A stretch of 64,000 nucleotides of DNA, from assembly GCF_018977255.1 (NCBI RefSeq), contig NW_024704742.1, positions 71,178,001-71,242,000 of the forward strand, written 5' to 3'. Position numbers and translations under genes: made by a program. The notes beneath the pieces were generated by a model. That model searched no databases. It was not told the origin of the DNA and worked only from the letters and a program-made list of their open reading frames with translations. The DNA comes from Callorhinchus milii (lineage: Eukaryota). How positions within the stretch are numbered: the first letter of the stretch is position 1; each line of letters starts with the position of its first letter. This document shows positions 34,201-62,595 of the stretch, piece by piece.

Positions 34201-34774
34201 AGGAGGTGCTGCCGCTCCTCTACTGGACGAGAAGAGAAGTTCAGTTTACCTCGGACGCCATCTAAACCAGACAAAACACCCAAAAGAAGTCCTGATGGGT
34301 CCGGCTTAAGCGGTTTCCGCTTTACTTGAAAAGAAAAAAGTTGCAAGGCAATGGGGGGAAGAGCGGGGAGTGGTACTGATTGGATAGTCCCACTCCCCTG
34401 CTCTTTCCCCATAACCTTGCAACTAATTCAAAGTTAGGCCGAATGGCCTCCTTTTGTGCTGTAGGATTCTATGATGTCCCTCCCCATGTCTTGCATGTGC
34501 GATCGTAGCTGCTCCACCCACAGTAGCAGCATCGAACAAACAACCCAAGAGGCCTGGGGCCCAGCACACTGTGTACAGCGGAGGGTGTGTTTGTAGCGCG
34601 TTTATAGCGGAGGAGGGTGTTTGTAGAGGACTCCACAATAAAATAAACACCACATATGAGCCAAGCTGGCTGGTCTGTCATCACCAGTGCCCTGAAACAT
34701 AGCAGACACACTTGGCTCAGTTCTAGAGACCGTCACAGAGTGCTGGAGATTCCAACATTCATCTGGCATGTCAG

Positions 34775-37740
34775 AGCTGTGTGTGTTGGGTAAGGGTGTG
34801 GGGTGTGTGTGTTGGGGTAAGGGTGTGGGGTGTGTGTGTTGGGGTAAGGGTGTGGGGTGTGTGTGTTGGGGTAAGGGTGTGGGGTGTGTGTGTTGGGGTA
34901 AGGGTGTGGTGTGTGTGTGTTGGGGTAAGGGTGTGAGCTGTGTGTTGGGGTAAGGGTGTGAGGTGTGTGTTGGGGTAAGGGTGTGGGCTGTGTGTGTTGG
35001 GGTAAGGGTGTGGGCTGTGTGTGTTGGGGTAAGGGTGTGGGGTGTGTGTGTTGGGGTAAGGGTGTGAGCTGTGTGTTGGGGTAAGGGTGTGAGGTGTGTG
35101 TGTGTTGGGGTAAGGGTGTGGGGTGTGTGTGTTGGGGTAAGGGTGTGAGCTGTGTGTTGGGATAAGGGTGTGAGCTGTGTGTTGGGGTAAGGGTGTGGGG
35201 TGTGTGTGTTGGGGTAAGGGTGTGGGGTGTGTGTGTTGGGGTAAGGGTGTGGGGTGTGTGTGTTGGGGTAAGGGTGTGGGGTGTGTGTGTTGGGGTAAGG
35301 GTGTGGGGTGTGTGTGTTGGGGTAAGGGTGTGGGGTGTGTGTGTTGGGGTAAGGGTGTGGGGTGTGTGTGTTGGGGTAAGGGTGTGGGGTGTGTGTGTTG
35401 GGGTAAGGGTGTGGGGTGTGTGTGTTGGGGTAAGGGTGTGGGGTGTGTGTGTTGGGGTAAGGGTGTGGGGTGTGTGTGTTGGGGTAAGGGTGTGAGCTGT
35501 GTGTTGGGGTAAGGGTGTGGGGTGTGTGTGTTGGGGTAAGGGTGTGAGCTGTGTGTTGGGGTAAGGGTGTGAGCTGTGTGTTGGGGTAAGGGTGTGGGGT
35601 GTGTGTGTTGGGGTAAGGGTGTGGTGTGTGTGTGTTGGGGTAAGGGTGTGAGCTGTGTGTTGGGGTAAGGGTGTGAGGTGTGTGTTGGGGTAAGGGTGTG
35701 GGCTGTGTGTGTTGGGGTAAGGGTGTGGGCTGTGTGTGTTGGGGTAAGGGTGTGGGGTGTGTGTGTTGGGGTAAGGGTGTGAGCTGTGTGTTGGGGTAAG
35801 GGTGTGAGGTGTGTGTGTGTTGGGGTAAGGGTGTGGGGTGTGTGTGTTGGGGTAAGGGTGTGAGCTGTGTGTTGGGATAAGGGTGTGAGCTGTGTGTTGG
35901 GGTAAGGGTGTGGGGTGTGTGTGTTGGGGTAAGGGTGTGGGGTGTGTGTGTTGGGGTAAGGGTGTGGGGTGTGTGTGTTGGGGTAAGGGTGTGGGGTGTG
36001 TGTGTTGGGGTAAGGGTGTGGGGTGTGTGTGTTGGGGTAAGGGTGTGGGGTGTGTGTGTTGGGTAAGGGTGTGGGGTGTGTGTGTTGGGGTAAGGGTGTG
36101 GGGTGTGTGTGTTGGGGTAAGGGTGTGGGGTGTGTGTGTTGGGGTAAGGGTGTGGGGTGTGTGTGTTGGGGTAAGGGTGTGAGCTGTGTGTTGGTGTAAG
36201 GGTGTGGGGTGTGTGTGTTGGGGTAAGGGTGTGGGGTGTGTGTGTTGGGGTAAGGGTGTGGGGTGTGTGTGTTGGGGTAAGGGTGTGGGGTGTGTGTGTT
36301 GGGGTAAGGGTGTGGGGTGTGTGTGTTGGGGTAAGGGTGTGAGCTGTGTGTTGGGGTAAGGGTGTGGGGTGTGTGTGTTGGGGTAAGGGTGTGGGGTGTG
36401 TGTGTTGGGGTAAGGGTGTGGGCTGTGTGTGTTGGGGTAAGGGTGTGAGCTGTGTGTTGGGATAAGGGTGTGAGCTGTGTGTTGGGGTAAGGGTGTGGGG
36501 TGTGTGTGTTGGGGTAAGGGTGTGGGGTGTGTGTGTTGGGGTAAGGGTGTGGGGTGTGTGTGTTGGGGTAAGGGTGTGGGGTGTGTGTGTTGGGGTAAGG
36601 GTGTGGGGTGTGTGTGTTGGGGTAAGGGTGTGGGGTGTGTGTGTTGGGGTAAGGGTGTGGGGTGTGTGTGTTGGGGTAAGGGTGTGGGGTGTGTGTGTTG
36701 GGGTAAGGGTGTGGGGTGTGTGTGTTGGGGTAAGGGTGTGGGGTGTGTGTGTTGGTGTAAGGGTGTGGGGTGTGTGTGTTGGGGTAAGGGTGTGGGGTGT
36801 GTGTGTTGGGGTAAGGGTGTGGGGTGTGTGTGTTGGGGTAAGGGTGTGGGGTGTGTGTGTTGGGGTAAGGGTGTGAGCTGTGTGTTGGGGTAAGGGTGTG
36901 AGGTGTGTGTGTTGGGGTAAGGGTGTGGGGTGTGTGTGTTGGGGTAAGGGTGTGAGCTGTGTGTTGGGGTAAGGGTGTGGGCTGTGTGTGTTGGGGTAAG
37001 GGTGTGAGCTGTGTGTTGGGGTAAGGGTGTGAGGTGTGTGTGTTGGGGTAAGGGTGTGGGCTGTGTGTGTTGGGGTAAGGGTGTGGGGTGTGTGTGTTGG
37101 GGTAAGGGTGTGAGCTGTGTGTTGGGGTAAGGGTGTGGGGTGTGTGTGTTGGGGTAAGGGTGTGGGGTGTGTGTTGGGGTAAGGGTGTGGGGTGTGTGTG
37201 TTGGGGTAAGGGTGTGGGGTGTGTGTGTTGGGGTAAGGGTGTGTGTGTTGGGGTAAGGGTGTGGGGTGTGTGTGTTGGGGTAAGGGTGTGGGGTGTGTGT
37301 GTTGGGGTAAGGGTGTGGGGTGTGTGTTGGGGTAAGGGTGTGAGGTGTGTGTGTTGGGGTAAGGGTGTGGGGTGTGTGTGTTGGGGTAAGGGTGTGGGGT
37401 GTGTGTGTTGGGGTAAGGGTGTGAGCTGTGTGTTGGGGTAAGGGTGTGAGGTGTGTGTGTTGGGGTAAGGGTGTGGGGTATGTGTGTTGGGGTAAGGGTG
37501 TGGGGTGTGTGTGTTGGGGTAAGGGTGTGGGCTGTGTGTTGGGGTAAGGGTGTGGGGTGTGTGTGTTGGGGTAAGGGTGTGGGGTGTGTGTGTTGGGGTA
37601 AGGGTGTGGGGTGTGTGTGTTGGGGTAAGGGTGTGAGCTGTGTGTTGGGGTAAGGGTGTGGGGTGTGTGTGTTGGGGTAAGGGTGTGGGCTGTGTGTTGG
37701 GGTAAGGGTGTGGGCTGTGTTATGGTGAGGGTGTGGGCAG
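34775..37740 (+). repeat. G-rich minisatellite, 27-bp unit GGGGTAAGGGTGTGGGGTGTGTGTGTT with 25-bp variants
   Basis: Directly visible tandem array of about 3 kb and roughly 110 units. Confidence 0.98.
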
Positions 37741-38045
37741 TTAGGGTGAAGGTTTGTTCTTTGTTGGGGTTGAAGTAGTGGCAGAGGTGGATGATGTTGT
37801 GGAGATGGAGGAAGGTGTACTTTGTCACAGTCCAAGTGAAAGGTTGGAAGGAGAGGTGAGGGTCAAACATAATGAGCGATGGGGGAGATAGATATGGTCA
37901 GGACTTGAGGTGCTGGGATCTCGGGTGTCCGACACCTACAGGTAGCGGCCGCTGAGCTGCTAGCCTCATTGATATTGAGTGCTCGTGGGTCATTGGCTCC
38001 CAACAGTGTCCATCCCATGGAGTCAGCCAGTCCCACTGAGCTGAA

Positions 38046-38188
38046 TTTAAGCAGGAGATGTCAGGAAAGTTACCACAGGGATAACCGGCTTGTGGCGGCC
38101 ACGTGTTCATAACGACATCACTTTTTGATCCTTTCATGTCGCCTCTTCCTATCGCTACGAAGCAGAATTCACCAAGTGTTGGATTGTT
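38046..38188 (+). pseudogene. Decayed 28S rRNA fragment (domain V, peptidyl-transferase region)
   Basis: Matches the conserved eukaryotic LSU stretch GCAGGAGGTGTCAGAAAAGTTACCACAGGGATAAC...TTTTTGATCCTT...CTCTTCCTATC...GAAGCAGAATTCACCAAG.GTTGGATTGTT with many substitutions; isolated from any other rDNA. Confidence 0.9.
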
Positions 38189-39297
38189 AGATAGCCAGAA
38201 TCCTATTGATGTCTGAAAAGGAAAAAGACATTTGTGTCAATCTTGCCTGCATGTCGATAACCAAGGTGCTCCGGCAAAGCATATCAATGATCGACAGGTG
38301 GAAATGTCACTGTCATCTTAATTAAATTAACGCTCTACCTCTTTTATTAAGGTTATTAATGTAGATATTCTACATATATTGAGATTTTGTGCAGAGCAAG
38401 AAGCTTTCGCTTCAAAGACATTTACGGTCTAGCCACCGAAATATAAATTTAAAGCGGAAAGGACAGCCTTGGCCACACAAAGTCTGTGACCTGGGTGAGT
38501 TACTGAAACAAAAACACTGGAAAGGATCACGTGGGTCCTGGAGAGGGAACCCACTGATACATTGAAAGGGCAGGAGATTGAATATAGAGGGAAAAAGTAT
38601 CAATGTGATACATTGAAAGGGGAGAAGTTAGGACAATATAAAAGGAGGGGGTTTGTTGAACTCGGGGTGAGCCATATTCCATTACCTGCTATAGCATTTC
38701 TCAATTTCTTTTCAGTGACTGGAACATCACATGACAGCAATTATGTATGCAGCTAAGCATCGAGCTTCTTTTTAAACGCACTATTACGTCCTGTTTCAAC
38801 AAAAAGCTTCTTGTAGTGAATTCCACATTCTCACTGCTTGCTGTGGAAAGAATATTAATAATTAATACATTATTATCTATGTTTTTATTATAAACTTTAT
38901 ATTAATCTCTATTGTCAAAAAATGACTATAGATTTGGCGGCTGAGGAAGAGTGGGGGTGAAAGCGAGAAGCCAAGCATAGTTTATATCACCTGTTTCCAG
39001 TGCAAACTAAAAAGGTATGAATGTTACGTAAAGCTCCTGCAAAATGCTCAAAACAAAACCTTATCTTAAATTGACATCAATAATGCACATGCACTGCACA
39101 TCATCAAAACTTCCAAAATAAATCATAATGCTTTGTTGGAGGTACTATTCTTTGGATGAGACGTTGAACTTAGGTCGCTGCTGTGCTGTTTAGTTGGATG
39201 GTAAAGTTCCCATGGCAGTATTCGAAGAAAGTTTCTCCTGGTATTCTGGGTTTTCTGGCCAACATTCCTCCATGCAACACTGGTCATTCATTCCATG

Positions 39298-40515: not shown

Positions 40516-40575
40516 GGGAATTGAACCCAGGTTCTCACGCTTGCGAGGCGTGTGCTCTAACCATTAAACTACAGG

Positions 40576-41300
40576 CTCACCTCCGGAATGTCACCAGACT
40601 ACGGCACTACCTCACCCATCACGCTGAAACTCTGGTCCACGCCTTTATCACCTCAAGACTGGACTATGGGAACTCTCTCCTCGCCGGCCTTCCCGGCACC
40701 TCCCTCCACACTGCAGGTCATTCAGAGCTCTGCAGCTCGTGTACTGTCCTGCACCAGGCTTCGCGACCACATCACTCCCACCCTCGCTCGCCTCCACTGG
40801 CTCCCCATCCCCCAGAGGATTGATTTCAAGATCCTCATCCTCACCTACGAGGCCATTCACGGCCTTGCTCCCCCCTACCTCTCCGACCTACTATCCCGCT
40901 ACCTACCTGCCCGTACCCTCCGTTCCTCTGTCTCCGGTCTGCTCCACATCCCCCGCCCCAACCGCCCTACCATCGGTGGCCGGGCCTTCAGCCTCTCAGC
41001 CCCGAGGCTCTGGAACTCTATCCCCCAGTGCCTTCGCCGCATCCTCCCTTTCCTCCTTCAAGGCCGGTCTCAAGACCTTTCTCTTTGACCGAGCCTTCAG
41101 CTCCCCTCTCGACTCTCTACCCCCTCCTCTCTCCCTCCCTTCCCTCCCCTCACCCTGACCATTTCCCCCCTCCTCGCTCCCTCCCTCCCCTCACCCTGAC
41201 CATTTCCCCCCTGCTCGGGTCCTGACCCAACTGTACAGCACCTTGGGACGTCCTCCTGACGTGAAAGGCGCTGTATAAATGGAATCTTGTTGTTGTTGTT
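40576..41300 (+). mobile_element. Young L2 3' portion
   Basis: Near-identical to 21529-22215; its tail abuts the GAS/ISRE cassette. Confidence 0.93.
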
Positions 41301-41302
41301 CC

Positions 41303-41488
41303 TTCTGGTAAAGCAAATCTTTTACCAGAAATCACCTGACCAGGTTATCGTTGTAAGTGAACCATATATAGTCATCAGCTCAAAGTGAAAGTGAAAACAA
41401 CATGTTTTTTACATTTATAAAGCTCACTTGCATCCTGCACCATTTGCCAGCCAGTAACAGAGACGACAAGTCATCAACCCAGGTATGT
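41303..41488 (+). promoter_or_regulatory. Putative IFN-responsive promoter and non-coding first exon, copy 1
   Basis: GAS-like TTCTGGTAA (41303-41311) and its exact reverse complement TTACCAGAA (41322-41330); ISRE/IRF-E AAAGTGAAAGTGAAA (41382-41396); TATAAA (41416-41421); splice donor CAG|GTATGT at 41482/41483. Confidence 0.7.
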
Positions 41489-41985
41489 GGATCTTGTATC
41501 ACAACAACTTGCTTTTATCCAAGTGCTCTTCATGTAGGATAGTGTTTTGAAGCACTTTAAAGTGATGGGGTCAAATGCTAAGCAAGGCAGGAGGGGAGAG
41601 GGAGGTGATCACAGGCACAGTCAAAGAGGTAGTGTAAATGTTTGAGTTCTTCATAATGTAAAACAAAGAGACTGACCAGCTGGATCTCAAAATAATGTCA
41701 GTACTTTAGCAACATGCTCTGTTGCCAAAATAACATCCATAAGTTGTTATACTATATATAAAACCATGACACATAGTTTGGATACAATTTTAGAGTCCTG
41801 TAATGTAATGGTTAGAGAACTAGCATCACAAGTGAGAGAGCTGGGTTCGATTCCTGGTGGGGCGAAACCTTAGGCAAGTTATCTTACTCCACACACCTCT
41901 GTTTACCCAGCAGTAAGTAGAAACCCAGTTAATCGAATGATGGATCGCTTTTCCTGGGATAATAATTCCTTAAAAAAATATGGTT

Positions 41986-42209
41986 GGTAAGAGACGCACT
42001 TGCCTTCCTGACAGACTGCAGTAAAGACTCCGCTCGCTGCATCCTCCCAACCACCGGCTCCTGTCACTGCCCTGGGAGGATGTCCATCAGGGAGGGAGGG
42101 AGAGAGGGAGCGGGTTGGAATGTTGGAAATGATCTCGGGCTGGATGCAGCCCACGGACTTTCTCAAATAGGGAATCCGGCCCCCGAAGCGAAACGTTTGG
42201 GCCACCCTG
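41986..42209 (-). mobile_element. Probable hAT-type non-autonomous DNA transposon end (duplicated at 44195-44418)
   Basis: Minus strand begins CAGGGTGGCCCAAAC...GGGGGCCGGAT, typical of vertebrate hAT MITE termini; it interrupts a SINE. Confidence 0.5.
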
Positions 42210-43511
42210 GCTTAGAGTATATCAATCATGGGTCGACAGATGGTCTTTCTCCTTCAGTGGCAGTATTGTGTTCTCCTACCGATGTGTTCACCACTTTTAT
42301 ACCTTATTTTCATGGCAACCGCTGACCAGGTCTTGCTTTTCCACAGAATCTGTTCTTGGCCAGTTCATGCCCTCTGTTTTATCTTTTCATACTAAAGATT
42401 AACCCTTTTACATTCCTTCAGACCTCATCAAAAATCAATGCTTTTACACCCCTTTATCAAAGTCCTTTGCTCATCCTGCTTTTAAGAGACAGATGTGCCT
42501 GGTACAATAACATTCTCCCCTCTCAAAGCTGAAACACTTGCAGGTTAGAGAACATCTCCTGCAAAGTCAAGTTTCCTTACTCCACATGGCTCTATTTATC
42601 TAGCAGTAAGTAGGAATGTGGTTGTTAGTCGAATGGCGGATTGCTTTTCTGGGGGTAATAAACCCTTAAAATAATAATAATAATTTGGTCACTCAATCCA
42701 CGACTGGTTGTGGGACACTGATGTCTGCAATTGGCTGCCGCATTTTGCCCACCCAATATACAGTCAATTCACTTTACCATTTATTCTGTGAAGCGCATTA
42801 GACATCTCAAAGATATAATAAGGGACAGTATCAAATACAAGGATTATTATTATTATTCTTCACTTGAATAGGCAGAGGATTTCAGTTTAACCCCTAGTTT
42901 AACAAAGGATTGCACCTCCGAAAATGCAGCACCACATTACGAAAAATACAAAGAATGTACAGCACAGAAACAGGGCATTCATCCCAACAAGTAATTATAC
43001 TCCATTAGTCTTCAGCCATTCCTTACTCCATCCCATACCCTGTTAATCCCCTCTCCTCCCACATGTGAAGGTCTAGCTTCCTTTGAATGCTTCTGCACTA
43101 TCTGATTCAGTCACCCCTTTGGGCTGTGAGTTCCAGAATCTCACTACCCTCCTCATGAAGTGGTTCTTAAATTCTCTTTTAGATCAAATCCAATTTCAAT
43201 CCAATTCAATCTCAATCCACAACTGGTATCTTCCTCCTAAACCTATGTTGTACTCTTTTTATCACTGCTATATCCTTCCTATAGTGTGGAGACCACAATT
43301 GGACACAATACTCCAAATGTGGTCTAACAAAGGTTCTCTTTGACCGTGCCTTCAGCTCCCCTCTCAACTCTCTACCCCCTCCTCGCTCCCTCCCTCCCCT
43401 CACCCTGACCATTTCCCCCCTGCTTGGGTCTTGACCCAACTGTACAGCGCCTTGGGACGTCCTCCCGACGTGAAAGGCGCTGTATAAATGGAATCTTGTT
43501 GTTGTTGTTCC

Positions 43512-43697
43512 TTCTGGTAAAGCAAATCTTTTACCAGAAATCACCTGACCAGGTTATCGTTGTAAGTGAACCATATATAGTCATCAGCTCAAAGTGAAAG
43601 TGAAAACCACATTTTTTTTACTTTTATAAAGTTCACTTGCATCCTGCACCATTTGCCAGCCAGTAACAGAGACGACAAGTCATCAACCCAGGTATGT
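43512..43697 (+). promoter_or_regulatory. Putative IFN-responsive promoter and non-coding first exon, copy 2
   Basis: Same cassette shifted by 2209 bp: GAS 43512-43520 and 43531-43539, ISRE 43591-43605, TATAAA 43625-43630, donor at 43691/43692. Confidence 0.7.
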
Positions 43698-45154
43698 GGA
43701 TCTTGTATCACAACAACTTGCTTTTATCCAAGTGCTCTTCATGTAGGATAGTGTTTTGAAGCACTTTAAAGTGATGGGGTCAAATGCTAAGCAAGGCAGG
43801 AGGGGAGAGGGAGGTGATCACAGGCACAGTCAAAGAGGTAGTGTAAATGTTTGAGTTCTTCATAATGTAAAACAAAGAGACTGACCAGCTGGATCTCAAA
43901 ATAATGTCAGTACTTTAGCAACATGCTCTGTTGCCAAAATAACATCCATAAGTTGTTATACTATATATAAAACCATGACACATAGTTTGGATACAATTTT
44001 AGAGTCCTGTAATGTAATGGTTAGAGAACTAGCATCACAAGTGAGAGAGCTGGGTTCGATTCCTGGTGGGGCGAAACCTTAGGCAAGTTTCCTTACTCCA
44101 CACACCTCTGTTTACCCAGCAGTAAGTAGAAACCCAGTTAATCGAATGATGGATCGCTTTTCCTGGGATAATAATTCCTTAAAAAAATATGGTTGGTAAG
44201 AGACGCACTTGCCTTCCTGACAGACTGCAGTAAAGACTCCGCTCGCTGCATCCTCCCAACCACCGGCTCCTGTCACTGCCCTGGGAGGATGTCCATCAGG
44301 GAGGGAGGGAGAGAGGGAGCGGGTTGGAATGTTGGAAATGATCTCGGGCTGGATGCAGCCCACGGACTTTCTCAAATAGGGAATCCGGCCCCCGAAGCGA
44401 AACGTTTGGGCCACCCTGGCTTAGAGTATATCAATCATGGGTCGACAGATGGTCTTTCTCCTTCAGTGGCAGTATTGTGTTCTCCTACCGATGTGTTCAC
44501 CACTTTTATACCTTATTTTCATGGCAACCGCTGACCAGGTCTTGCTTTTCCACAGAATCTGTACTTGGCCAGTTCACGCCCTCTGTTTTATCTTTTCATA
44601 CTAAAGATTAACCCTTTTACATTCCTTCAGACCTCATCAAAAATCAATGCTTTTACACCTCTTTATCAAAGTCCTTTGCTCATCCTGCTTTTAAGAGACA
44701 GATGTGCCTGGTACAATAACATTCTCCTCTCTCAAAGCTGAAACACTTGCAGGTTAGAGAACATCTCCTGCAAAGTCAAGTTTCCTTACTCCACATGGCT
44801 CTATTTATCTAGCAGTAAGTAGGAATGTGGTTGTTAGTCGAATGGCGGATTGCTTTTCTGGGGGTCATAAACCCTTAAAATAATAATAATAATTTGGTCA
44901 CTCAATCCACGACTGGTTGTGGGATACTGATGTCTGCAATTGGCTGCCGCATTTTGCCCACCCAATATACAGTCAATTCACTTTACCATTTATTCTGTGA
45001 AGCGCATTAGACATCTCAAAGATATAATAAGGGACAGTATCAAATACAAGGATTATTATTATTATTCTTCACTTGAATAGGCAGAGGATTTCAGTTTAAC
45101 CCCTAGTTTAACAAAGGATTGCACCTCCGAAAATGCAGCACCACATTACGAAAA

Positions 45155-45690
45155 ATACAAAGAATGTACAGCACAGAAACAGGGCATTCATCCCAACAAG
45201 TAATTATACTCCATTAGTCTTCAGCCATTCCTTACTCCCTCCCATACCCTGTTAATCCCCTCTCCTCCCACATGTGAAGGTCTAGCTTCCTTTGAATGCT
45301 TCTGCACTATCTGATTCAGTCACCACTTTGGGCTGTGAGTTCCAGAATCTCACTACCCTCCTCATGAAGTGGTTCTTAAATTCTCTTTTAGATCAAATCC
45401 AATTTCAATCCAATTCAATCTCAATCCACAACTGGTATCTTCCTCCTAAACCTATGTTGTACTCTTTTTATCACTGCTATATCCTTCCTATAGTGTGGAG
45501 ACCACAATTGGACACAATACTCCAAATGTGGTCTAACAAAGGTTTTGTATAAATTAAACATTACCTCCTAATACTTATATTCTATCCCTCTGGAAATAAA
45601 ACCCCAAAACTCATTGACCTTTTTTGTTACACCCCTTTATACACCCCTTACTTACGTGTGTAGCTACTTTTAGAGATTTGTGGATTTCAA
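45155..45690 (-). mobile_element. CR1 fragments (partly duplicated at ~42945-43335)
   Basis: [21 protein letters not shown] on the minus strand. Confidence 0.85.
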
Positions 45691-46064
45691 TTAGTTGCAT
45701 ATCTATAAATACTCAGCTTAAGTGCTCTGCGCCTCTATCCTGCATGAAGGGTGCTATATAAATGCAAGTTGTTGTTGTTATCCCTTTCTCTCATCTTGAA
45801 GAAAGACAAGATATTAGATTGTACTTATTCACAGACTCCTATAATTTGTAGCTTATTGTTTTGCAGGTTATTAGTTGGAAACTTGACCAAACATTCATTA
45901 CTGGCAACCTACTCTCTTCAATGAAAAACAATAAACCAATCCAGGGGAAGACTGTAATGATATAGAAAAAACAAATAAAACACGTATTGTTGCACCACAC
46001 AGCAAGCCAGCTCCTCTGGACACTGGCCAAGGGATCTGAGGAAGGCTCCAACCTGGCACAGGAA

Positions 46065-49000
46065 ATGGATGAAACTTTGCAACACAAGAAAGAATGGTCA
46101 CCATCTGAACTCCTAGGAAAGGCCTCAGGGGGTCTGGCACTCAAAGGAATCTTGGTCAGTGAGAATCTGAGTGACCTGCTACAGGAACGGTGCCCATTGC
46201 TGGAAGTGCCTGAGAAATGCAGCTTGTTGGGGCCGTCCATGATAGCTGTGGAGCAGACTGCTAGCTATGAGTCTTATACTCATGCAGCAAATTCCAAAAA
46301 GTCTCTGGAAAAGCTGGGAGAAGGATTCTCCAGCCAGCTTGAAGCAGGATTCTGGGGTATTAAAGTTGATGTGAAGGCAGAGTACAACTCCTCTTCCTCC
46401 ACCTCTGCATCATCCTCCACAGTCAATAAGAGCACCTACTCATCTTGGTGCAAGAAGGTCCTTTTACCCACAGCATGTGTTCAGTTGAAACCCACAGATC
46501 TGAAATTGTCAGAAATGGCTCTGAACTCACTGAGGGAGGTTGAAGACAATCTGCTATACAGGACAACAGATACGAAAGACACATTTTGTGATAAGTTTCT
46601 CGAACAGTTTGGGTCACACGTGAACAGCAGCAACATCCACTTTGGGGCCATTTACTTAAGGCAAGCAGAGAGTTCTGCATTGAACCATAAGGAGAAGCAA
46701 CTGTCAGAAGAAGTCATGACACAGCTGATCAACATGAACTTGGACACAAACAAATTTGGAGCTGGTAGTGCCTCAGTTACAGCCTCAGCCTCTAAATTTC
46801 AATCTGTCCTTGATAGGAAATACAAGAGCACTCTGCTGGATAAAATCTATGTTTCTATTCATAAAATTGGAGGACCTATTGATGCACCATCTCTGGCAGC
46901 CTGGACAGAAGGAACACACCTCAACAGCAGAACCTGGAGAGTGATTGACCGCGGATGCCCCAATGATCTGGTTCCTGTCTGGAGAATAATTCTGGAGAAA
47001 CACAGAAGAGATTTCAAGAATGTGCAGTTGCTGACCGAAGCCCTGCAGAGATGTTGGGAAACAAAGACTGGGCTAAAGGATGAAACTAGAGGCACTGTGG
47101 AGATGATCATTGTCCGCACAAGTATTCAGGATCTGGCCCAGGAAGTGGAGAAGTGGAACCAAGCCTCAGAATCAGATTTTGTTAGGAATTGTGCCAATTA
47201 CATTTCTAAATGTGCAAATATCAAATCCTCCCTGGGAAAACATCAGGCAATAGACACAGACAGATTGTGGTATGATGAGTTCATCTGTCGTAGCTCTGTT
47301 CAGAAGTTCCTCAGTAAAGTTTTAAAGTGCGCGAGCAGCGAGGATGAAGTTTACCTGAAAATTCGTGTTCTCGATCTCCTGAAACCTCAGGAAATGATAA
47401 GCGTTAAGGATTTTCCAAACATTTCAGAGATCCTACAGCAACTAACCAACCATCCCTACAGAGAGCGAGAGCTGTCATTCTCCAGCGCTGAGGAGGCAAA
47501 GCAATACATCTTGAAGCTGGAGATGAAATTCCGAGTTGCTGATACTGGGATTGAGTTAGAAGCTAGTGCCCGCAATCAACTGGGAAAAGCATTGTTTGAG
47601 CTGCAACTGTTTTACAAACGAAACAACTCTCTATATGCCTCTCTTCTTCTCCCAGCAATACTGCATCCAATCTCCTATAACGCCGATGGAACAATGAACC
47701 GGTGTCTCGAAGACAGTGACTGGAAATATCTCATCTCTCAGTTGGATAGAATTGAGAGTTTCAGAGAAGAATTGCAGAACAAGGGGAGTGAAGAGCAGCA
47801 AGCCTTTCTGTTGTACACAGCTCTGTCTGCCAGGGAGGAATGTAAGCATGTGCAGTCAGATGATGCCAATATTACAGCTGTGTTGCAGATGTTGTGTAAA
47901 CAATTGAACCAAGAGATGCTTCCACGGGTTCGTGAAGCTATAATGACAAACAATAGAACCATTATAACAGATGCGAAACTTATGAAAGAAACATTACAAA
48001 GTTTGTCAAGCAAAGCAATCCCGGGACCTCAATTGAGTGAATCACTGTCAGAATTTGGTGATAGCTTTCCTTGCCAGAACACAGCATCTCCCAGTGATCT
48101 CAATGACATCCAGACTGGCCCATCCAATTCATCGAATAGTGGACCTCCCCCAAAGATGCTAACTGACCTGGGATTGCTTGATTACTATCCGAGGAAACTT
48201 TCCCTGAGGCAGATGCGAGGGATCAGCGCTGATAAATTAAAGGACATTAAACCCACTGGACCTGAAGGAATCCCCTGGCACTTTCTCCAGAGAGTCCTGA
48301 TGGCTAATTCAACAGCGAGGAATCCTGACTGGCCGCTCATCCAACAGCTGGAAAATCGCTTGGATGTTGATGAGGATTTTGCTGATTTCTTTGAGGACAA
48401 AAAAAGACAAGTAACCGGAATTAATCCACTGGATGTCACAGTTGCTACTTTTCTCTGTGCAGATCACTTCCTGAGGCAGGAGCTGATGCTCAAAATGTCC
48501 CTGTGCCAGTTTGCATTGCCTTTTCTGCTGCCAGACGGGGACACTGCCATCTTCCTCCTCTGGGCCATGCGCTCCATTGTTAAACAGTGGCGCCCGCAGT
48601 CTCTAGTGGGCAATTGTGGGTTTGTAGAGGATAACATTGTGACCTCAGCCTTGCCAACCTTCTCCTTTATCAGACTGGGACGGTGCACTGTCTCCAAATC
48701 GAAAATCCTGAATCTCACCTTGAGCCGCTCCGAGCAGCAGCAGAATTTCTTCCTGCACTCCCAGATGGAATACAGTGACCAGCCCCGGGAAATGTCTGAT
48801 GGACTGGTTGAGATCTGCTGGTATCTGCCTTGTGGGAAGGTGAACCTGGATATCTTGCCGGAGGCCTGCGCATTTATTAACCTCCGTGGTGAGGGTAAAG
48901 CTCACCAGAAACAGGCTCGGTTCCTCGCCAAAGTCTCCAATGCTCTCTTTGTTTTCATTGACGTTGTTGGTGAAGAGGAAAGAGAGTTTCTGACTTCTCT

Positions 49001-52000
49001 CACACCATCACCTACACAATTTTTCCTTATAACAAACTCCAGCGGCAATGAGCAGAAAGTCACCCCGCAGCAGATGAGGGAACTGTTCAAATCCCTGAAT
49101 TTGCAGAGTCACCAGCTGCTGGTACGGAAGGACAAGAACGATGCCCAGTTCGTGGAAATCCTTCGCTCCAAAATCAAGAGCCTCCTCACACTCGGGGAAG
49201 TGGGGCAGCGAGGGCTGGAAGAAATGGCTATAGTAGCGAGGGAAAGCGGGATTTGCATTGATGAAGATGAGCCTGAAATCAACCGAGGGAAACAACTGGC
49301 CAACAATATACTGATAGACATTCACTCCAGAGACATTGCAGAGTATAAACAAACGGCGCTACCCTTTCAGGGAAAGCTCTGGCAAGAATGGTCCAAAGCT
49401 GAGAAAGAGAAGTGCCGAATGAAACACTGCCAGAATAAGCCCATGGAGCTGTACGGACATGAATTGAATCAAAAGCAAAATCAGATCCGCAAAATCCAGA
49501 GTGAGAAGAATGTGAGTGAGGAGATGAAACAGTTCATTGCTGCCCTGAAGAAAACCTCTGAGGCCGAGCAGGGCTTTTTTATGCAATGGCTGAAGTTGGG
49601 CCTGGACAGAAAATCGCGACAAATTATATCGAAGCTTCGGGTTCAATCTAAAACACTACATAAAAATTCCAAGGAATCAAGTACAGAGTTGAATGAGTTG
49701 GATCAGAAAATAGCTGACAGCTCCCTGGGGCTAGAGCACTTCATGCGAGAACTCAGTCAGATTTACGAGATTTGCGCTACTCTGGGTAAAGAGAGGATTT
49801 CAGAAAATACATTGAGTATGTTACCTGGTGTAGCTGCTGATCTGATGCTGGGTGGGTTCCCTCTGGAGCTCATTGATGGAGATGTCTCCAATATTCCTAT
49901 GCAGTGGGTGACTGCGGTGTTGAAGGGAGTTACTAGGAGGGTGGGAAATGATTGCCGTATATTTGTGTTGACGGTGCTTGGTGTGCAGAGCACAGGGAAG
50001 TCCACACTCCTGAACACAATGTTCGGATTGCAGTTTGCTGTAAGCAGTGGTCGGTGCACACGTGGTGCTTACATGCAACTCATTAAACTCACAGGCGGCC
50101 TGGAGACTGAACTGGGCAGTGATTTCATCCTGGTGATCGACACCGAGGGGTTGAAAGCCCCAGAGCTGGCAAGTCTCGGGGACAGCTATGAGCATGACAA
50201 TGAGCTGGCCACGTTGGTGATTGGACTCAGTGATGTGACCTTAGTGAATATGTCCATGGAAAACTCCACAGAAATGAAGGATATTCTGCAAATTGTGGTC
50301 CATTCGTTCATTCGCATGAGGGCAACGGGGAAAAAGCCAATTTGCCAATTTGTTCACCAGAATGTGGCTGGCGTGTCAGCTCATGATCAGACCCTGAGAG
50401 ATCGACAGAAACTCCTGAAACAGCTGGATGAGATGACAGAGGCTGCTGCTCGGATGGAGAAATTGCAGCGAGTCACGTTCTGCGATGTGCTGGACTATGA
50501 CACTGATAGGAACAATTGGTATATCCCTGGGTTGTGGCACGGAGTCCCTCCAATGGCAGCAGTGAACACTGGCTACAGTGAACATGTCTTTGAGCTGAAG
50601 AAATCTCTTTTCACTTGCTTTTCAAACTGCAACAAAAAGCAAAAGGCTTTAACAATCCCCAACTTCATCAAATGGATGTCTGGCCTCTGGGACCAGATCA
50701 AACATGAAAATTTCATTTTCAGCTTCCAGAACAGCTTGGTCGCTGAGGCTTACAGTCAGCTCTCCAGGAACTACTCAGCCTGGGATTTGGAGATCCGGAC
50801 ATTTGCCCATACCTGGACAATTGAGACTGAAAACAGAATAAAGAACACAAACACTGAGGAATTCCCTCATCAGTCCCTCACCCTGGAGATCACCACAAAA
50901 ATGGAGGAAAAGAAGAATGAGATCCTCAACAAACTTGAGGAGTACTATGAAAGCAGAGATCATAACGTCCACCTCATGGAATCTTACAGGGAGCAATTTC
51001 GAATAAGTATCCAGTCTTTGTGCAGCCAACTTCAGAATGAATCAACACAGAAATGTGAAGAGGTTATCCGAAGACGTGAGGCATTGGATAAAGTGGATAA
51101 GATTTGGGATGAATATAATAAGCAAATCGAGGATGAAGTGATGATACTTTTGCAATACTGCAAAAAAGATGGGAAGGAGATGGATGATTGTAAACTTGAG
51201 GAGGAGTTCAAAAGGATGTGGCAGAGAACTCTCGAGAAGCTGAGCTACCGACCCTCTAAAGAAACAAATATTGAGGCTGATGTTGAAAATCTCCTGAGAA
51301 AGAACATGCCAACACAGGGGAAAGTGATCAGTGAGGCTCTGAGGGGGAAAGTCCTTTCAAAACTGGGGCTTCACATGTTTGATGTGAAGAAGAAACATAT
51401 TGATCAGAAAATAGGGATCAACATGCTTGTGGGATTCATAGTAGAAACTTCAGAAGTTAAAAAGGCAAGATTGCTGTCAAAGTGCCTGGAGGAAGAATGT
51501 AAAGAAGACATAGATAGTATCACAAAAAAGGACGTGGATTACGACAGTAAATATTGTGTTGACATTTTGTGGAACTTGGACAAAAATATAGAAAACAATT
51601 CAGAACCGGAGTTTAAGATGAGTGAAATTTATAAGGCGGAATTCAAGCTCCACATGTGTGGCTACGCTGCTCAAAAATTCAAAGTCATGCACAACGTGTT
51701 TGTCAACAAGCACAACCCATGGAAGAGGATGGAAAATATGGAGAATCAATACTTTGAGCTTTTCAAGCAGATTTACACAAAGCAGGACATGACTGAAAAA
51801 GGAGCAGAAAGATTTGCCAAGAATTGTTTCATTCCGGCCGTCAGGGAAGCCATTCTCAACTGTCTCGGGCACAGAATTGTGCTTGACATGAAAAAAAATG
51901 ATTCCAGCGGGGAGTACAGCAATCGCAATAGCTTCACTGTGGCTCTGCTCGTCCACCTAAAACAGCAGGACAAATTTGACCAATATCTTAATTACATCAA

Positions 52001-52859
52001 CCACTTTAAGAGTTTTGCAAACAATTGGCTTCGTGGTCAGGTTATCAATTACTGCAACACGAAAACAAATGGAGATACCAAATTTATACATTTAGCAAAA
52101 GTTCACCTCAAGGAGATCACTAATGAAGCTAAAGAGATTGTCAGGGAAGCGATCGCTCAGAATGTATCAGGTGAAGCCAGAAGCTTCCTTGACTTGTTTG
52201 TCGATAAGTTGAAGGCAAAACTCGCAATGCCCAAAGACAGCCTGAAGCTTGTTGTTTTCCAGCCTGCCAGCAAGGCCGGGAATTTTGCAAAAATGGTCCT
52301 GCCACATATCCAGGAGGCGGAAACCTCTCTCCTCCAGGAGCTCACAACATGGAATGTCAATGCAATGATTGAGCAGCTTCCTGTGAAACCCCATGAGGAA
52401 ATATTGAAAAAACTTATTAGTTGCAACAAAAAATGCCCTTTCTGTCAAGTCTGTTGTGAAATAGAAACGCTTGGCAATCATCAGCATTTCAGTAACCAGC
52501 ACAGACCTACGGGACTCAATAGACATCGCTGGTCGAATAATAAGCATCTTGTGATGGACATTTGCACTGCTTCAGTAGCAAGCAATTGTAAATTCAGAAA
52601 CTCAGACACAAACGAACAGTGGGTGAAATACGAGGACTATTGTACAGTAAATGATTATTACAAATCCTGGATTATCCAAAAATCTCCCAGTGCGGAGGCA
52701 GCATCTTACTGGAAAAAAGTTTTCCACATCTTTAATCAGGATTTTGCTAAACACTATAATGCGGAACCTGCCGACATCACTGATGCCTGGAACATACCAT
52801 GGGACAGGGTGAAGGACGATCTTAACAAAACCTACTATGTGTCCTTGAAATTTCTGTAG
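46065..52859 (+). CDS. GVIN1: Interferon-induced very large GTPase (GVIN1/VLIG, URG4-related), ~2264 aa from the first ATG, encoded in one exon
   Basis: Open frame 45987-52859. First ATG after the in-frame TAG (45963) is at 46065 in strong Kozak context (gaaATGg). G1 GVQSTGKS at 49980-50003, G2 region FAVSSGRCTRG, G3 DTEG at 50139-50150, then ELATLVIGLSD and FVHQN. URG4-type block NPLDV..FLCADHFLRQELMLKMSLCQFALPFLLPD. N-terminal ASGGLALKGI motif and C-terminal CPFC...H..H...HRP, all typical of the VLIG family. One-to-one orthology is not established. Confidence 0.93.
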   Translation: MDETLQHKKEWSPSELLGKASGGLALKGILVSENLSDLLQERCPLLEVPEKCSLLGPSMIAVEQTASYESYTHAANSKKSLEKLGEGFSSQLEAGFWGIKVDVKAEYNSSSSTSASSSTVNKSTYSSWCKKVLLPTACVQLKPTDLKLSEMALNSLREVEDNLLYRTTDTKDTFCDKFLEQFGSHVNSSNIHFGAIYLRQAESSALNHKEKQLSEEVMTQLINMNLDTNKFGAGSASVTASASKFQSVLDRKYKSTLLDKIYVSIHKIGGPIDAPSLAAWTEGTHLNSRTWRVIDRGCPNDLVPVWRIILEKHRRDFKNVQLLTEALQRCWETKTGLKDETRGTVEMIIVRTSIQDLAQEVEKWNQASESDFVRNCANYISKCANIKSSLGKHQAIDTDRLWYDEFICRSSVQKFLSKVLKCASSEDEVYLKIRVLDLLKPQEMISVKDFPNISEILQQLTNHPYRERELSFSSAEEAKQYILKLEMKFRVADTGIELEASARNQLGKALFELQLFYKRNNSLYASLLLPAILHPISYNADGTMNRCLEDSDWKYLISQLDRIESFREELQNKGSEEQQAFLLYTALSAREECKHVQSDDANITAVLQMLCKQLNQEMLPRVREAIMTNNRTIITDAKLMKETLQSLSSKAIPGPQLSESLSEFGDSFPCQNTASPSDLNDIQTGPSNSSNSGPPPKMLTDLGLLDYYPRKLSLRQMRGISADKLKDIKPTGPEGIPWHFLQRVLMANSTARNPDWPLIQQLENRLDVDEDFADFFEDKKRQVTGINPLDVTVATFLCADHFLRQELMLKMSLCQFALPFLLPDGDTAIFLLWAMRSIVKQWRPQSLVGNCGFVEDNIVTSALPTFSFIRLGRCTVSKSKILNLTLSRSEQQQNFFLHSQMEYSDQPREMSDGLVEICWYLPCGKVNLDILPEACAFINLRGEGKAHQKQARFLAKVSNALFVFIDVVGEEEREFLTSLTPSPTQFFLITNSSGNEQKVTPQQMRELFKSLNLQSHQLLVRKDKNDAQFVEILRSKIKSLLTLGEVGQRGLEEMAIVARESGICIDEDEPEINRGKQLANNILIDIHSRDIAEYKQTALPFQGKLWQEWSKAEKEKCRMKHCQNKPMELYGHELNQKQNQIRKIQSEKNVSEEMKQFIAALKKTSEAEQGFFMQWLKLGLDRKSRQIISKLRVQSKTLHKNSKESSTELNELDQKIADSSLGLEHFMRELSQIYEICATLGKERISENTLSMLPGVAADLMLGGFPLELIDGDVSNIPMQWVTAVLKGVTRRVGNDCRIFVLTVLGVQSTGKSTLLNTMFGLQFAVSSGRCTRGAYMQLIKLTGGLETELGSDFILVIDTEGLKAPELASLGDSYEHDNELATLVIGLSDVTLVNMSMENSTEMKDILQIVVHSFIRMRATGKKPICQFVHQNVAGVSAHDQTLRDRQKLLKQLDEMTEAAARMEKLQRVTFCDVLDYDTDRNNWYIPGLWHGVPPMAAVNTGYSEHVFELKKSLFTCFSNCNKKQKALTIPNFIKWMSGLWDQIKHENFIFSFQNSLVAEAYSQLSRNYSAWDLEIRTFAHTWTIETENRIKNTNTEEFPHQSLTLEITTKMEEKKNEILNKLEEYYESRDHNVHLMESYREQFRISIQSLCSQLQNESTQKCEEVIRRREALDKVDKIWDEYNKQIEDEVMILLQYCKKDGKEMDDCKLEEEFKRMWQRTLEKLSYRPSKETNIEADVENLLRKNMPTQGKVISEALRGKVLSKLGLHMFDVKKKHIDQKIGINMLVGFIVETSEVKKARLLSKCLEEECKEDIDSITKKDVDYDSKYCVDILWNLDKNIENNSEPEFKMSEIYKAEFKLHMCGYAAQKFKVMHNVFVNKHNPWKRMENMENQYFELFKQIYTKQDMTEKGAERFAKNCFIPAVREAILNCLGHRIVLDMKKNDSSGEYSNRNSFTVALLVHLKQQDKFDQYLNYINHFKSFANNWLRGQVINYCNTKTNGDTKFIHLAKVHLKEITNEAKEIVREAIAQNVSGEARSFLDLFVDKLKAKLAMPKDSLKLVVFQPASKAGNFAKMVLPHIQEAETSLLQELTTWNVNAMIEQLPVKPHEEILKKLISCNKKCPFCQVCCEIETLGNHQHFSNQHRPTGLNRHRWSNNKHLVMDICTASVASNCKFRNSDTNEQWVKYEDYCTVNDYYKSWIIQKSPSAEAASYWKKVFHIFNQDFAKHYNAEPADITDAWNIPWDRVKDDLNKTYYVSLKFL

Positions 52860-61350: not shown

Positions 61351-62595
61351 CCATAACTAAAGTAAATATATGGATAAAAGCAAGTTGTTGGGACACAAGG
61401 ATCCATGCACCTGGGTTGATGCCTGATTGGCTCTAGACTTTGTAAACTCTTGACGTTGCCACATTTGGCTAAATTATCAAGGAACAAGTGGTTTCTGGTA
61501 AAAGACTTGATTTACAATTAAGTGAGAAAGGAAACTGGCAATATCGACATCAACAGGTGCACTGGCCTGCACACTGGCTTTCACTCAATGGGACTGGCTG
61601 ACACTTTAGGGTGGTGGCCACTATTGGAAGCAAGGGAGCAGCGAACATCCAAACGGCCAAAGGGCTTGTGGCCAAGCATCCTCTACCAGCTGGGCATGAT
61701 CCCTTCACCCCTCACATTATTCCTGAAGGATGTCACCTCTCCAGAAATGATTAATACAAATACTTTTAAACTCAGATCTTGTCCTCAAGGGCTGAGGACG
61801 TGACTGTGGAAGACAGGAAATACAAAAAGGCAGGAAGACTGTGGGAAACACAAATTGGTGATGAGTCGGCTCTTCACCCCAATATGTACACCCACAATAT
61901 GACTCCCTACCACTTGCAGAGTGTTGTGGGTGGCCTCTGTGTTCAATCCTCACTAATGAATGCAAGTCCCTATAACTAGATGTGATTAGTCTACTGAGTT
62001 CTTCTACGATGACAGGTATTACCAATTACTATGTAAATTAAAGCAAATTGGGAAGCTTCAGTCAATCAGAGGTTTATTTTTGAACCTCTCTGTAACCTAG
62101 GCTGAACCTATTTGTGTATTCCCACCTTCTTTGATTTGTACAGAAAGCTCGAGAAAGCACACTTAAGCAAACTGGTCCAATCAGATCCTCCTCTCAGTTG
62201 CTCAATAGGGGACAAGTACACTTCCAGTCCTTAATTTGCATATTATAATGTAAGTTACCTGCCAAATTGTTGCATTTGGAGATGTGATGGCAACCTAAGT
62301 ATCAAATACAATGTACATAAAAGATGTACTTAAAGGGCTACTCAATAAGTTTATAATGCGCACGCGCCAGTTCTACAGAACTTTGGCATTTTCCGAGTTT
62401 CCCCAAGCGCAATCAGTAAATGTATAGTAATCCATAGTAATCAGTATTAACCACACTTACACTGGCTAATGCTTTTAGTGAAGAAAGACTTTACAGAAAA
62501 TATTTTAGACAACAAATAGGCAGAGAAAACAATGGGATGACCATAACATAGGTGATGGCCAAGTACGACTGGAATAAGGAGACGCGATCTCATGT

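What the first reader, a model, noticed from the sequence alone, without database searches (positions are those of the whole stretch)
41303..43697. Doubled interferon promoter cassette (paired GAS + ISRE + TATA + first exon) upstream of the GTPase
Seen: within ~185 bp, two mutually inverted STAT-type sites 19 bp apart, the IRF repeat AAAGTGAAAGTGAAA, TATAAA ~20 bp later, and a CAG|GTATGT donor ~60 bp after that. The whole cassette occurs twice. Several of the few differences between copies cluster between the ISRE and just after the TATA box (acaacatg/accacatt, acattt/actttt, agctc/agttc), while GAS, ISRE and TATA cores are intact. Established: tandem GAS sites support cooperative STAT1 binding, and GAS+ISRE pairs drive GBP-type genes. 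Inference: the gene has two alternative IFN-inducible start sites splicing to one coding exon, i.e. promoter dosage amplification in a cartilaginous fish.
Basis: partly seen in the sequence, partly recalled or inferred. Interest (0 to 1): 0.72.

Follow-up and report, generated by a model that had tools for sequence, protein, structure and literature searches.

The report
Copy-number-variable interferon promoter, shark-relative GTPase
In a cartilaginous fish, the interferon-type promoter and first untranslated exon of a giant immune GTPase gene sit in a 2.2-kb tandem repeat whose copy number appears to differ between individuals, and the upstream copy appears to be transcribed, although interferon induction and any effect on gene output are untested.

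Summary
The motifs are all there, but they are part of a whole 2.2-kb tandem duplication (41081-43335 / 43336-45544, 99% identical, 2-nt microhomology). It holds the promoter, noncoding exon 1 and 1.85 kb of intron of a MACPF-bearing GVIN/VLIG GTPase (ATG 46065, 2264 aa). In two DNA runs the unit has about 2x and about 4x the contig depth of the ORF: real, and probably copy-number variable. Two RNA-like runs from two studies start their long contig at acceptor 45867, with no break at 46003. In one, a 90-nt contig is reproduced exactly by an exon1-to-exon1 splice into the AG of the downstream TATAAAG. That would mean an upstream copy fires and the downstream copy doubles as an internal exon. 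Inducibility and dosage are untested. Closest known: mouse Irga6 exons 1A/1B and hybrid first/internal exons. Variant of known kinds; interest 0.5.

The parts
41081..43335 (+). Tandem unit, copy 1 (2255 nt): L2-type LINE tail, promoter, exon 1, 1.85 kb of intron
   Evidence: 20 substitutions plus one 46-nt indel versus copy 2 (count follows the gap placement)
43336..45544 (+). Tandem unit, copy 2 (2209 nt)
   Evidence: contig depth about 2x (X1) and about 4x (X2) of the ORF
43334..43337 (+). Duplication junction with 2-nt TT microhomology, joining a CR1-like piece to the inside of an L2-type tail (repeat names recalled)
   Evidence: not seen directly among the 15 of 985 joints shown
40561..41300 (+). 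3' part of a LINE-like repeat ending in a (GTT)n tail 2 nt before the first GAS; its last part is inside the duplicated unit
   Evidence: further copies at 22.0, 39.6, 55.0 and 62.7 kb, 87-95% identical; label L2 recalled
41303..41330 (.). Inverted GAS-type pair, 19 nt centre to centre (copy 2: 43512-43539)
   Evidence: spacing lies in the 18-21 bp range enriched among induced STAT1 tandems (PMC2897888)
41382..41396 (+). ISRE/IRF triple repeat (copy 2: 43591-43605)
41416..41422 (+). TATAAAG (copy 2: 43625-43631); its final AG is the inferred splice acceptor of downstream copies
41423..41482 (+). Exon-1 segment, ATG-free. As a first exon it probably starts near 41442-41449 (inferred from TATA spacing); as an internal exon it is 60 nt (copy 2: 43632-43691)
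   Evidence: table 8 record 30 ends exactly at 43691; models
45867..52859 (+). Single large coding exon: acceptor 45867, 14-codon uORF 45921-45965, ORF 46065-52859 (2264 aa; MACPF + URGCP + URGCP/VLIG GTPase)
61371..61535 (-). Older, diverged, inverted homologue of the cassette: one GAS, an ISRE-like word, TACAAAG and the donor; no coding exon found behind it in the window

Best explanation
A real, young head-to-tail duplication of a 2.2-kb unit (promoter + noncoding exon 1 + part of intron 1) of a GVIN/VLIG immune GTPase gene. It arose by a break-repair event with 2-nt microhomology (shown in the sequence) and has since changed copy number, probably by unequal exchange (about 2 vs about 4 copies per ORF; depth-based). 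Each unit carries an IRF/STAT-type TATA promoter (motifs shown; inducibility inferred from the family). Transcripts splice exon 1 to the single coding exon at 45867 (inferred from RNA contig ends in two studies). When an upstream unit fires, the AG of a downstream unit's TATA box can serve as acceptor, so that unit's exon is included as a 60-nt, ATG-free internal exon (inferred from one run). The protein is unchanged; only promoter number and 5'UTR length vary. That extra units raise induced output is plausible but unshown (about 0.45 given the rest).
For: Clean junction, no Ns. Depth ratios 1.96 (range 1.4-2.5) in X1 and 3.97 (3.0-4.9) in X2. ORF depth X2/X1 is 0.76 and high-copy repeat bins give 0.75, so the ORF is an internal control. 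Copy-1 letters appear in DNA contigs laid on copy 2 at 43613, 43632, 44563 and 44577 (both runs) and 45325 (X2). The long contigs of X5 and X6 both align from 45864 with a 27-nt overhang (27+CAG = 30 = k-1), while DNA contigs run on to 45756. X6 record 30 (90 nt, letters 32-90 on 43633-43691) together with record 31 was reproduced only by the exon1-to-exon1 model with the copy-1 letter at +1, among 7 models x 2 start sites x 3 scorings. Of 4 further models only the three-exon chain gave a 90-nt unitig. The length-derived acceptor falls exactly after an AG. The 5' edge of the units is 3.4% diverged against 0.52% in the body (Fisher p 9e-5), which fits exchange within an array. Precedents: Irga6 (PMC2848866), hybrid-exon model B (PMC11797052).
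Against: No junction letters were seen: none of the three expected joints is among the 15 of 985 shown. The exon1-to-exon1 piece is listed in 1 of 2 RNA-like runs (8 pieces shown per run). X5 and X6 are only guessed to be RNA. The tool warns that contig depth is a poor copy-number measure; only 2 DNA runs, from one study, were laid, and extra copies could lie elsewhere in the genome. My unitig models ignore assembler tip clipping. The used +1 letter is not the T of the assembly's copy 2, so the model needs a downstream copy unlike the assembled one. No start-site, induction or dosage data.
Confidence: 0.7

Rival explanations
1. The duplication is real, but only the last unit matters as a promoter. 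Upstream units are silent or their output is cancelled by interference, and the 90-nt contig has another origin (an unknown upstream exon, rare read-through with back-splicing, a dispersed copy). The copy-number variation is neutral.
For: Junction letters unseen. No sign of selection on the cores. The unit starts inside a LINE tail, which may be methylated (3 of the 4 tail differences in 41166-41300 are at CpG).
Against: Any use of the acceptor at 43632 needs RNA from upstream of that TATA box. An unknown upstream exon predicts split unitigs of 58+62+148 nt, not 90. In Irga6, 800-fold induction of the upstream promoter did not lower the downstream one (PMC2848866 section 7).
Confidence: 0.14
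2. The 60-nt segment is an ordinary internal 5'UTR exon. TATAAAG is only its acceptor, the true start lies farther upstream, and this is an internal-exon duplication.
For: A T-rich tract and AG precede the segment (pyrimidine fraction 0.64 in copy 1, 0.77 in copy 2). A short upstream exon could be lost as a clipped tip. No start site was mapped.
Against: The ISRE-TATA-donor geometry is that of a promoter and is rare by chance. Upstream-start models split the 90-nt unitig (models H and I).
Confidence: 0.12
3. Assembly artefact: two haplotypes placed in tandem.
For: Copies are 99% identical, similar to allelic divergence; the tandem junction was not seen directly in reads.
Against: 2x and 4x depth in DNA runs whose ORF contigs differ from the window by 14 and 9 letters, so they are not simply the assembled haplotype. 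Microhomology junction without a gap. The exon1-to-exon1 pattern.
Confidence: 0.04

Closest known systems
Mouse Irga6 (IIGP1) exons 1A/1B (PMC2848866; read: abstract, introduction, first results part, part 1 of 2 of section 7, passages)
   Same: IFN-inducible GTPase. Two promoters with related untranslated 5' exons splice to one long coding exon and give an identical protein. GAS and ISRE sites upstream. A 1A-1B tandem cDNA was reported once.
   Different: Irga6 exons are 6.5 kb apart, diverged and differently regulated (IFN vs liver). Here the units are 99% identical, share all elements, appear variable in number, and the tandem form was abundant enough to assemble (depth 14.6 vs 42.3; not a quantification).
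Hybrid first/internal exons, FE-to-HFE transition model B (HES3, KRT18) (PMC11797052; read: passages and section 20)
   Same: A new upstream first exon activates a latent 3' splice site near an existing first exon.
   Different: Here the new upstream exon is a tandem copy of the same exon, and the inferred acceptor is the AG of the TATA box. The word 'duplication' does not occur in that paper's main text.
GVIN1/VLIG-1 giant GTPases (10.1101/2025.03.24.645074; seen: listing, start of abstract, passages. Single-exon ORF and IRF-1 dependence of mouse VLIG-1: recalled, not read)
   Same: URGCP and URGCP/VLIG GTPase domains, ORF in one giant exon, ISG-type promoter motifs.
   Different: N-terminal MACPF domain (0 occurrences of MACPF in the preprint); multiplied promoter; inducibility untested here.
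Tandem GAS sites bound by STAT1 (PMC2897888; passages)
   Same: 19 bp centre-to-centre spacing falls in the 18-21 bp range moderately enriched among induced tandems.
   Different: Human ChIP data. That paper stresses that many predicted sites are unoccupied. The pair here is in unique sequence next to, not inside, a repeat.

Membership tests
GVIN/VLIG giant GTPase gene | URGCP and URGCP/VLIG GTPase domains with a P-loop | tested here: met
   PF25683 E 9e-185, PF25496 E 8e-99; GVQSTGKS at residue 1306, DTEG at 1359; best named hits 53-57% identical, cartilaginous-fish GVIN1/URGCP-like
GVIN/VLIG giant GTPase gene | ORF in a single very large exon (feature recalled) | tested here: met
   6795-nt ORF; one unbroken contig in each of X5 and X6
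GVIN/VLIG giant GTPase gene | Interferon inducibility | not testable with these tools
   no treated/untreated data; run libraries not on record
GAS+ISRE interferon-responsive promoter | ISRE/IRF repeat and GAS sites close upstream of a core promoter | tested here: met
   (full order 0 of 200; GAS pair alone 120 of 200)
GAS+ISRE interferon-responsive promoter | Transcription starts downstream of the TATA box | tested here: inconclusive
   consistent with the unsplit 90-nt unitig; contigs cannot show starts
GAS+ISRE interferon-responsive promoter | STAT/IRF binding and element-dependent induction | not testable with these tools
   needs ChIP or reporter assays
Irga6-type alternative 5' untranslated exons | Two promoters/first exons both used and spliced to one coding exon | tested here: inconclusive
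   splice to 45867 inferred in 2 of 2 RNA-like runs; upstream use inferred in 1 of 2; the copies cannot be told apart in exon 1
Irga6-type alternative 5' untranslated exons | Diverged, differently regulated promoters | tested here: not met
   GAS, ISRE and TATA identical; 4 differences in 41303-41482
Hybrid first/internal exon | Same exon used both as first and as internal exon through a 3' splice site near the start | tested here: inconclusive
   internal use inferred from contig geometry; junction letters and start sites not seen
Multi-allelic tandem copy-number variant | Unit depth differs between individuals against a single-copy control | tested here: met
   1.96 vs 3.97; control ratios 0.76 and 0.75; only 2 of the 4 large holder runs laid
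Multi-allelic tandem copy-number variant | Head-to-tail junction seen in reads | tested here: inconclusive
   not among 15 of 985 joints shown

The most novel reading that the evidence does not exclude
The unit is a multi-allelic promoter array that works as a heritable dial on the interferon response of a MACPF-GTPase defence gene. Each added 2.2-kb unit adds one complete STAT/IRF promoter and, through the AG of its own TATA box, one optional ATG-free 60-nt leader exon, so output scales without touching the protein. Copy number would be kept variable by pathogen pressure, in line with the many amino-acid variants in the ORF (15 of 26 shown).
Probability: 0.2. Interest if true: 0.72.

Novelty: new variant of a known kind. 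Interest (0 to 1): 0.5.

Why it matters
If confirmed, this is a natural experiment on promoter dosage: individuals with about 2 and about 4 identical interferon promoters in front of one coding exon allow a direct test of whether tandem promoters add up or interfere. It would catch the starting state of an Irga6-like two-promoter gene before divergence, and show a first exon turning hybrid simply by self-duplication. It also gives a well-formed GAS/ISRE/TATA promoter for testing interferon signalling in a cartilaginous fish. If copy number does not affect output, it is an ordinary neutral structural variant.

Tried and rejected
No whole genome was available, so genome-wide copies of the unit and of the 61.4-kb homologue could not be counted. 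No run is on record as RNA (no RNA holder listed; 13 of 24 rows hold part of the stretch, 7 hold half or more); X5 and X6 are treated as RNA only because of their contig ends. The joint tables showed 15 of 985 joints, all repeat-derived, and the cross-run count was not given. Summed bin depths were not used for copy number because repeats swamp them; they served only as a run-to-run scale. Rows dropped before the depth ratio: X1 record 3 (91 nt, 22.1) and record 6 (209 nt, 4.3), both under 300 nt; only 8 pieces per run were shown (32 of 129,609). Acceptor 46003 rejected: it predicts a break in the long contig (model C) and none is seen. The unspliced-intron branch predicts a 25-nt overhang; 27 was observed. 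Selection on the cores rejected (P(0)=0.71). The idea that copy 2's three purine-to-pyrimidine differences were selected to strengthen the acceptor is post hoc and not backed: the RNA piece has a non-T at +1, and DNA contigs show a mosaic (no change listed at 43608, copy-1 letters at 43613 and 43632). In one search the random-stretch control (maximum 182) probably included stretches overlapping a copy, because my exclusion range was too narrow; only the tiling control (maximum 28 vs 42, 519 stretches) is used. tblastn of 9 GVIN proteins found no second GTPase remnant in the window. PDB sequence search of the first 400 residues gave 1 weak hit, E 0.61. Literature: 9 searches listed no paper on this locus or on a duplicated GVIN promoter; one search returned 0 papers. 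Subscription journals are mostly not covered and no supplements were opened. Scan notes: none near, none by words.

Full report
OBSERVATION. All recur 2209 nt downstream. The triple IRF repeat is found only at these two places (shuffle mean 0.04). The whole ordered pattern arose in 0 of 200 simulated sequences, ISRE+TATA in 11 of 200, and a loose GAS pair alone in 120 of 200. The 19-bp spacing is inside the 18-21 bp range moderately enriched among IFN-gamma-induced STAT1 tandems (PMC2897888, passages).

WHAT IS DOUBLED. A whole unit: 41081-43335 and 43336-45544, with 20 substitutions and one 46-nt indel, joined head to tail over a 2-nt TT microhomology. It begins inside the tail of a LINE-like repeat that ends 2 nt before the first GAS, and ends in another repeat piece (names L2 and CR1 recalled). 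The four promoter differences are clustered (P about 0.005-0.012), but they belong to a wider effect: the first 297 aligned nt are 3.4% diverged, the other 1912 nt 0.52% (Fisher p 9e-5; promoter part alone p 0.0075). Intact cores are expected by chance (P=0.71).

THE GENE. The ORF from 46065 to 52859 (2264 aa) has URGCP and URGCP/VLIG GTPase domains and an N-terminal MACPF match above Pfam's cut-off (33.2 vs 21.5 bits). Its start aligns with the starts of two shark proteins. The best named relatives are skate, ray and shark GVIN1/URGCP-like proteins at 53-57%. Earlier scan notes call this genome elephant shark; I did not test the species.

IS IT REAL? I laid 4 of the 24 listed runs on copy 2 plus the ORF. 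Contigs of 300 nt or more inside the unit had depths 17.5, 15 and 21.5 in X1 against 8.6, 10.4 and 8.49 in the ORF. In X2 they had 28.1, 31.4 and 26 against 6.4-8.7. Length-weighted ratios are 1.96 and 3.97. ORF depth X2/X1 (0.76) matches the ratio in six high-copy repeat bins (0.75), so the ORF has the same copy number in both runs and the unit does not. Copy-1 letters appear in these contigs, mixed with copy-2 and new letters. I read this as a real array with about 2 and about 4 units per ORF. Caveats: two runs of one study, contig depth rather than reads (the tool calls it a poor copy measure), the junction not among the 15 of 985 joints shown, and extra copies could be dispersed.

IS IT USED? 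X5 and X6 (two studies, RNA by guess) each give one contig over the whole ORF, aligned from 45864 with exactly 27 unaligned letters, while the DNA contigs continue to 45756. 27 + CAG = 30 = k-1, the mark of a branch right after an upstream exon ending in CAG and spliced to 45867. There is no break at 46003. X6 also has a 90-nt contig whose letters 32-90 lie on 43633-43691, ending exactly at the donor. I built de Bruijn unitigs for 7 transcript models at 2 start sites under 3 scorings. Only 'exon 1 to 45867 plus exon 1 to a downstream copy entered at 43632 with the copy-1 letter' gave both pieces exactly. A genomic extension aligned from letter 1, the assembly's copy-2 letter from letter 29, and retained intron gave a 25-nt overhang. 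Of 4 more models (lengths only), an upstream exon or an upstream start with the repeated exon split the piece into 58+62 nt, an upstream exon without the repeat gave one long unitig, and a three-exon chain gave 90. Position 43632 follows the AG of TATAAAG. So an upstream unit is most likely transcribed, and a downstream unit's exon can be included as an ATG-free 60-nt internal exon. This is inference: the overhang letters were not shown, the piece is listed for 1 of 2 runs, and tip clipping was not modelled.

MECHANISM. Shown: anatomy, junction, motifs, ORF. Depth-based: copy-number variation. Inferred: start 25-35 nt after TATA; splice to 45867; upstream firing; hybrid use of the downstream exon; unequal exchange as the source of copy change, edge divergence and mosaic haplotypes. 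From family knowledge only: induction through IRF/STAT. Untested: dosage. The protein is the same from every unit. The leader carries a 14-codon uORF (45921-45965) whichever unit fires.

COMPARISON. Mouse Irga6 has two related untranslated first exons, with GAS/ISRE sites, spliced to one coding exon; a 1A-1B tandem cDNA was reported once, and 800-fold induction of 1A did not depress 1B (PMC2848866: abstract, introduction, first results part, section 7 part 1, passages). This locus works like Irga6 but fails the 'diverged regulation' feature. A new upstream first exon that activates a latent acceptor at an old first exon is model B of hybrid-exon origin (PMC11797052: passages and section 20). 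Human GVIN1 is an IFN-gamma-inducible antibacterial coat protein (10.1101/2025.03.24.645074: listing and passages). The zebrafish ISG preprint 10.1101/693333 (passages) does not mention GVIN. Nine searches listed nothing on this locus; coverage is limited to open papers and no supplements were read.

AN OLDER COPY. A diverged, inverted homologue lies at 61371-61535: one GAS, an ISRE-like word, TACAAAG and the donor with its intron flank (87% over 54 and over 31 nt; core score 42 vs a maximum of 28 in 519 control stretches). No GTPase coding remnant lies behind it in the window. The module has therefore been copied before; whether as a paralogue or as part of a repeat is open.

VERDICT. Observation confirmed; interpretation partly supported. 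A real, probably multi-allelic promoter/exon-1 array of an immune GTPase, with indirect evidence that upstream units fire. Each ingredient is known; the combination (identical units, variable number, TATA-box AG as acceptor) was not found in my searches. New variant of a known kind; interest 0.5; the dial reading has probability 0.2 and would merit 0.72.

Noticed in passing
window 46065-47889: The GTPase has an N-terminal MACPF domain (residues 108-287, above Pfam cut-off). The database's own protein for this locus starts at 47889 and lacks it, whereas two shark proteins align from the first residue.
   Followed up: partly
window 61371-61535 (-): Diverged inverted homologue of the promoter/exon-1 cassette with no coding exon behind it; it points toward the 3' end of the GTPase gene.
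   Followed up: partly
window 50045: The X5 contig lacks 16 nt inside the GTPase domain (near residue 1327; 19 gap letters in all), which would break the frame: a null allele or an assembly artefact.
   Followed up: no
window 46065-52859: 15 of the 26 ORF variants shown change a residue, with clusters at residues 1785-1787 and 2157-2158; 5 further variants of the stretch were not shown.
   Followed up: partly
window 45921-45965: 14-codon uORF in frame with, and ending 99 nt before, the main ATG; present in every transcript that uses acceptor 45867.
   Followed up: no
window 38050-38190: Looks like a decayed 28S rRNA fragment (recalled); no Rfam match at the gathering threshold.
   Followed up: partly
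window 34600-37900: Strand-skewed 25/27-nt GT-rich satellite of about 3 kb.
   Followed up: no
window 3531, 19727, 33705, 40508, 58787: Five weak tRNA matches (39-46 bits), probably heads of tRNA-derived SINEs.
   Followed up: no
window 45489-45646: An X5 contig of 424 nt matches here only with its last 158 letters (4 differences): another locus of the same repeat or a structurally different haplotype near the end of the unit.
   Followed up: no
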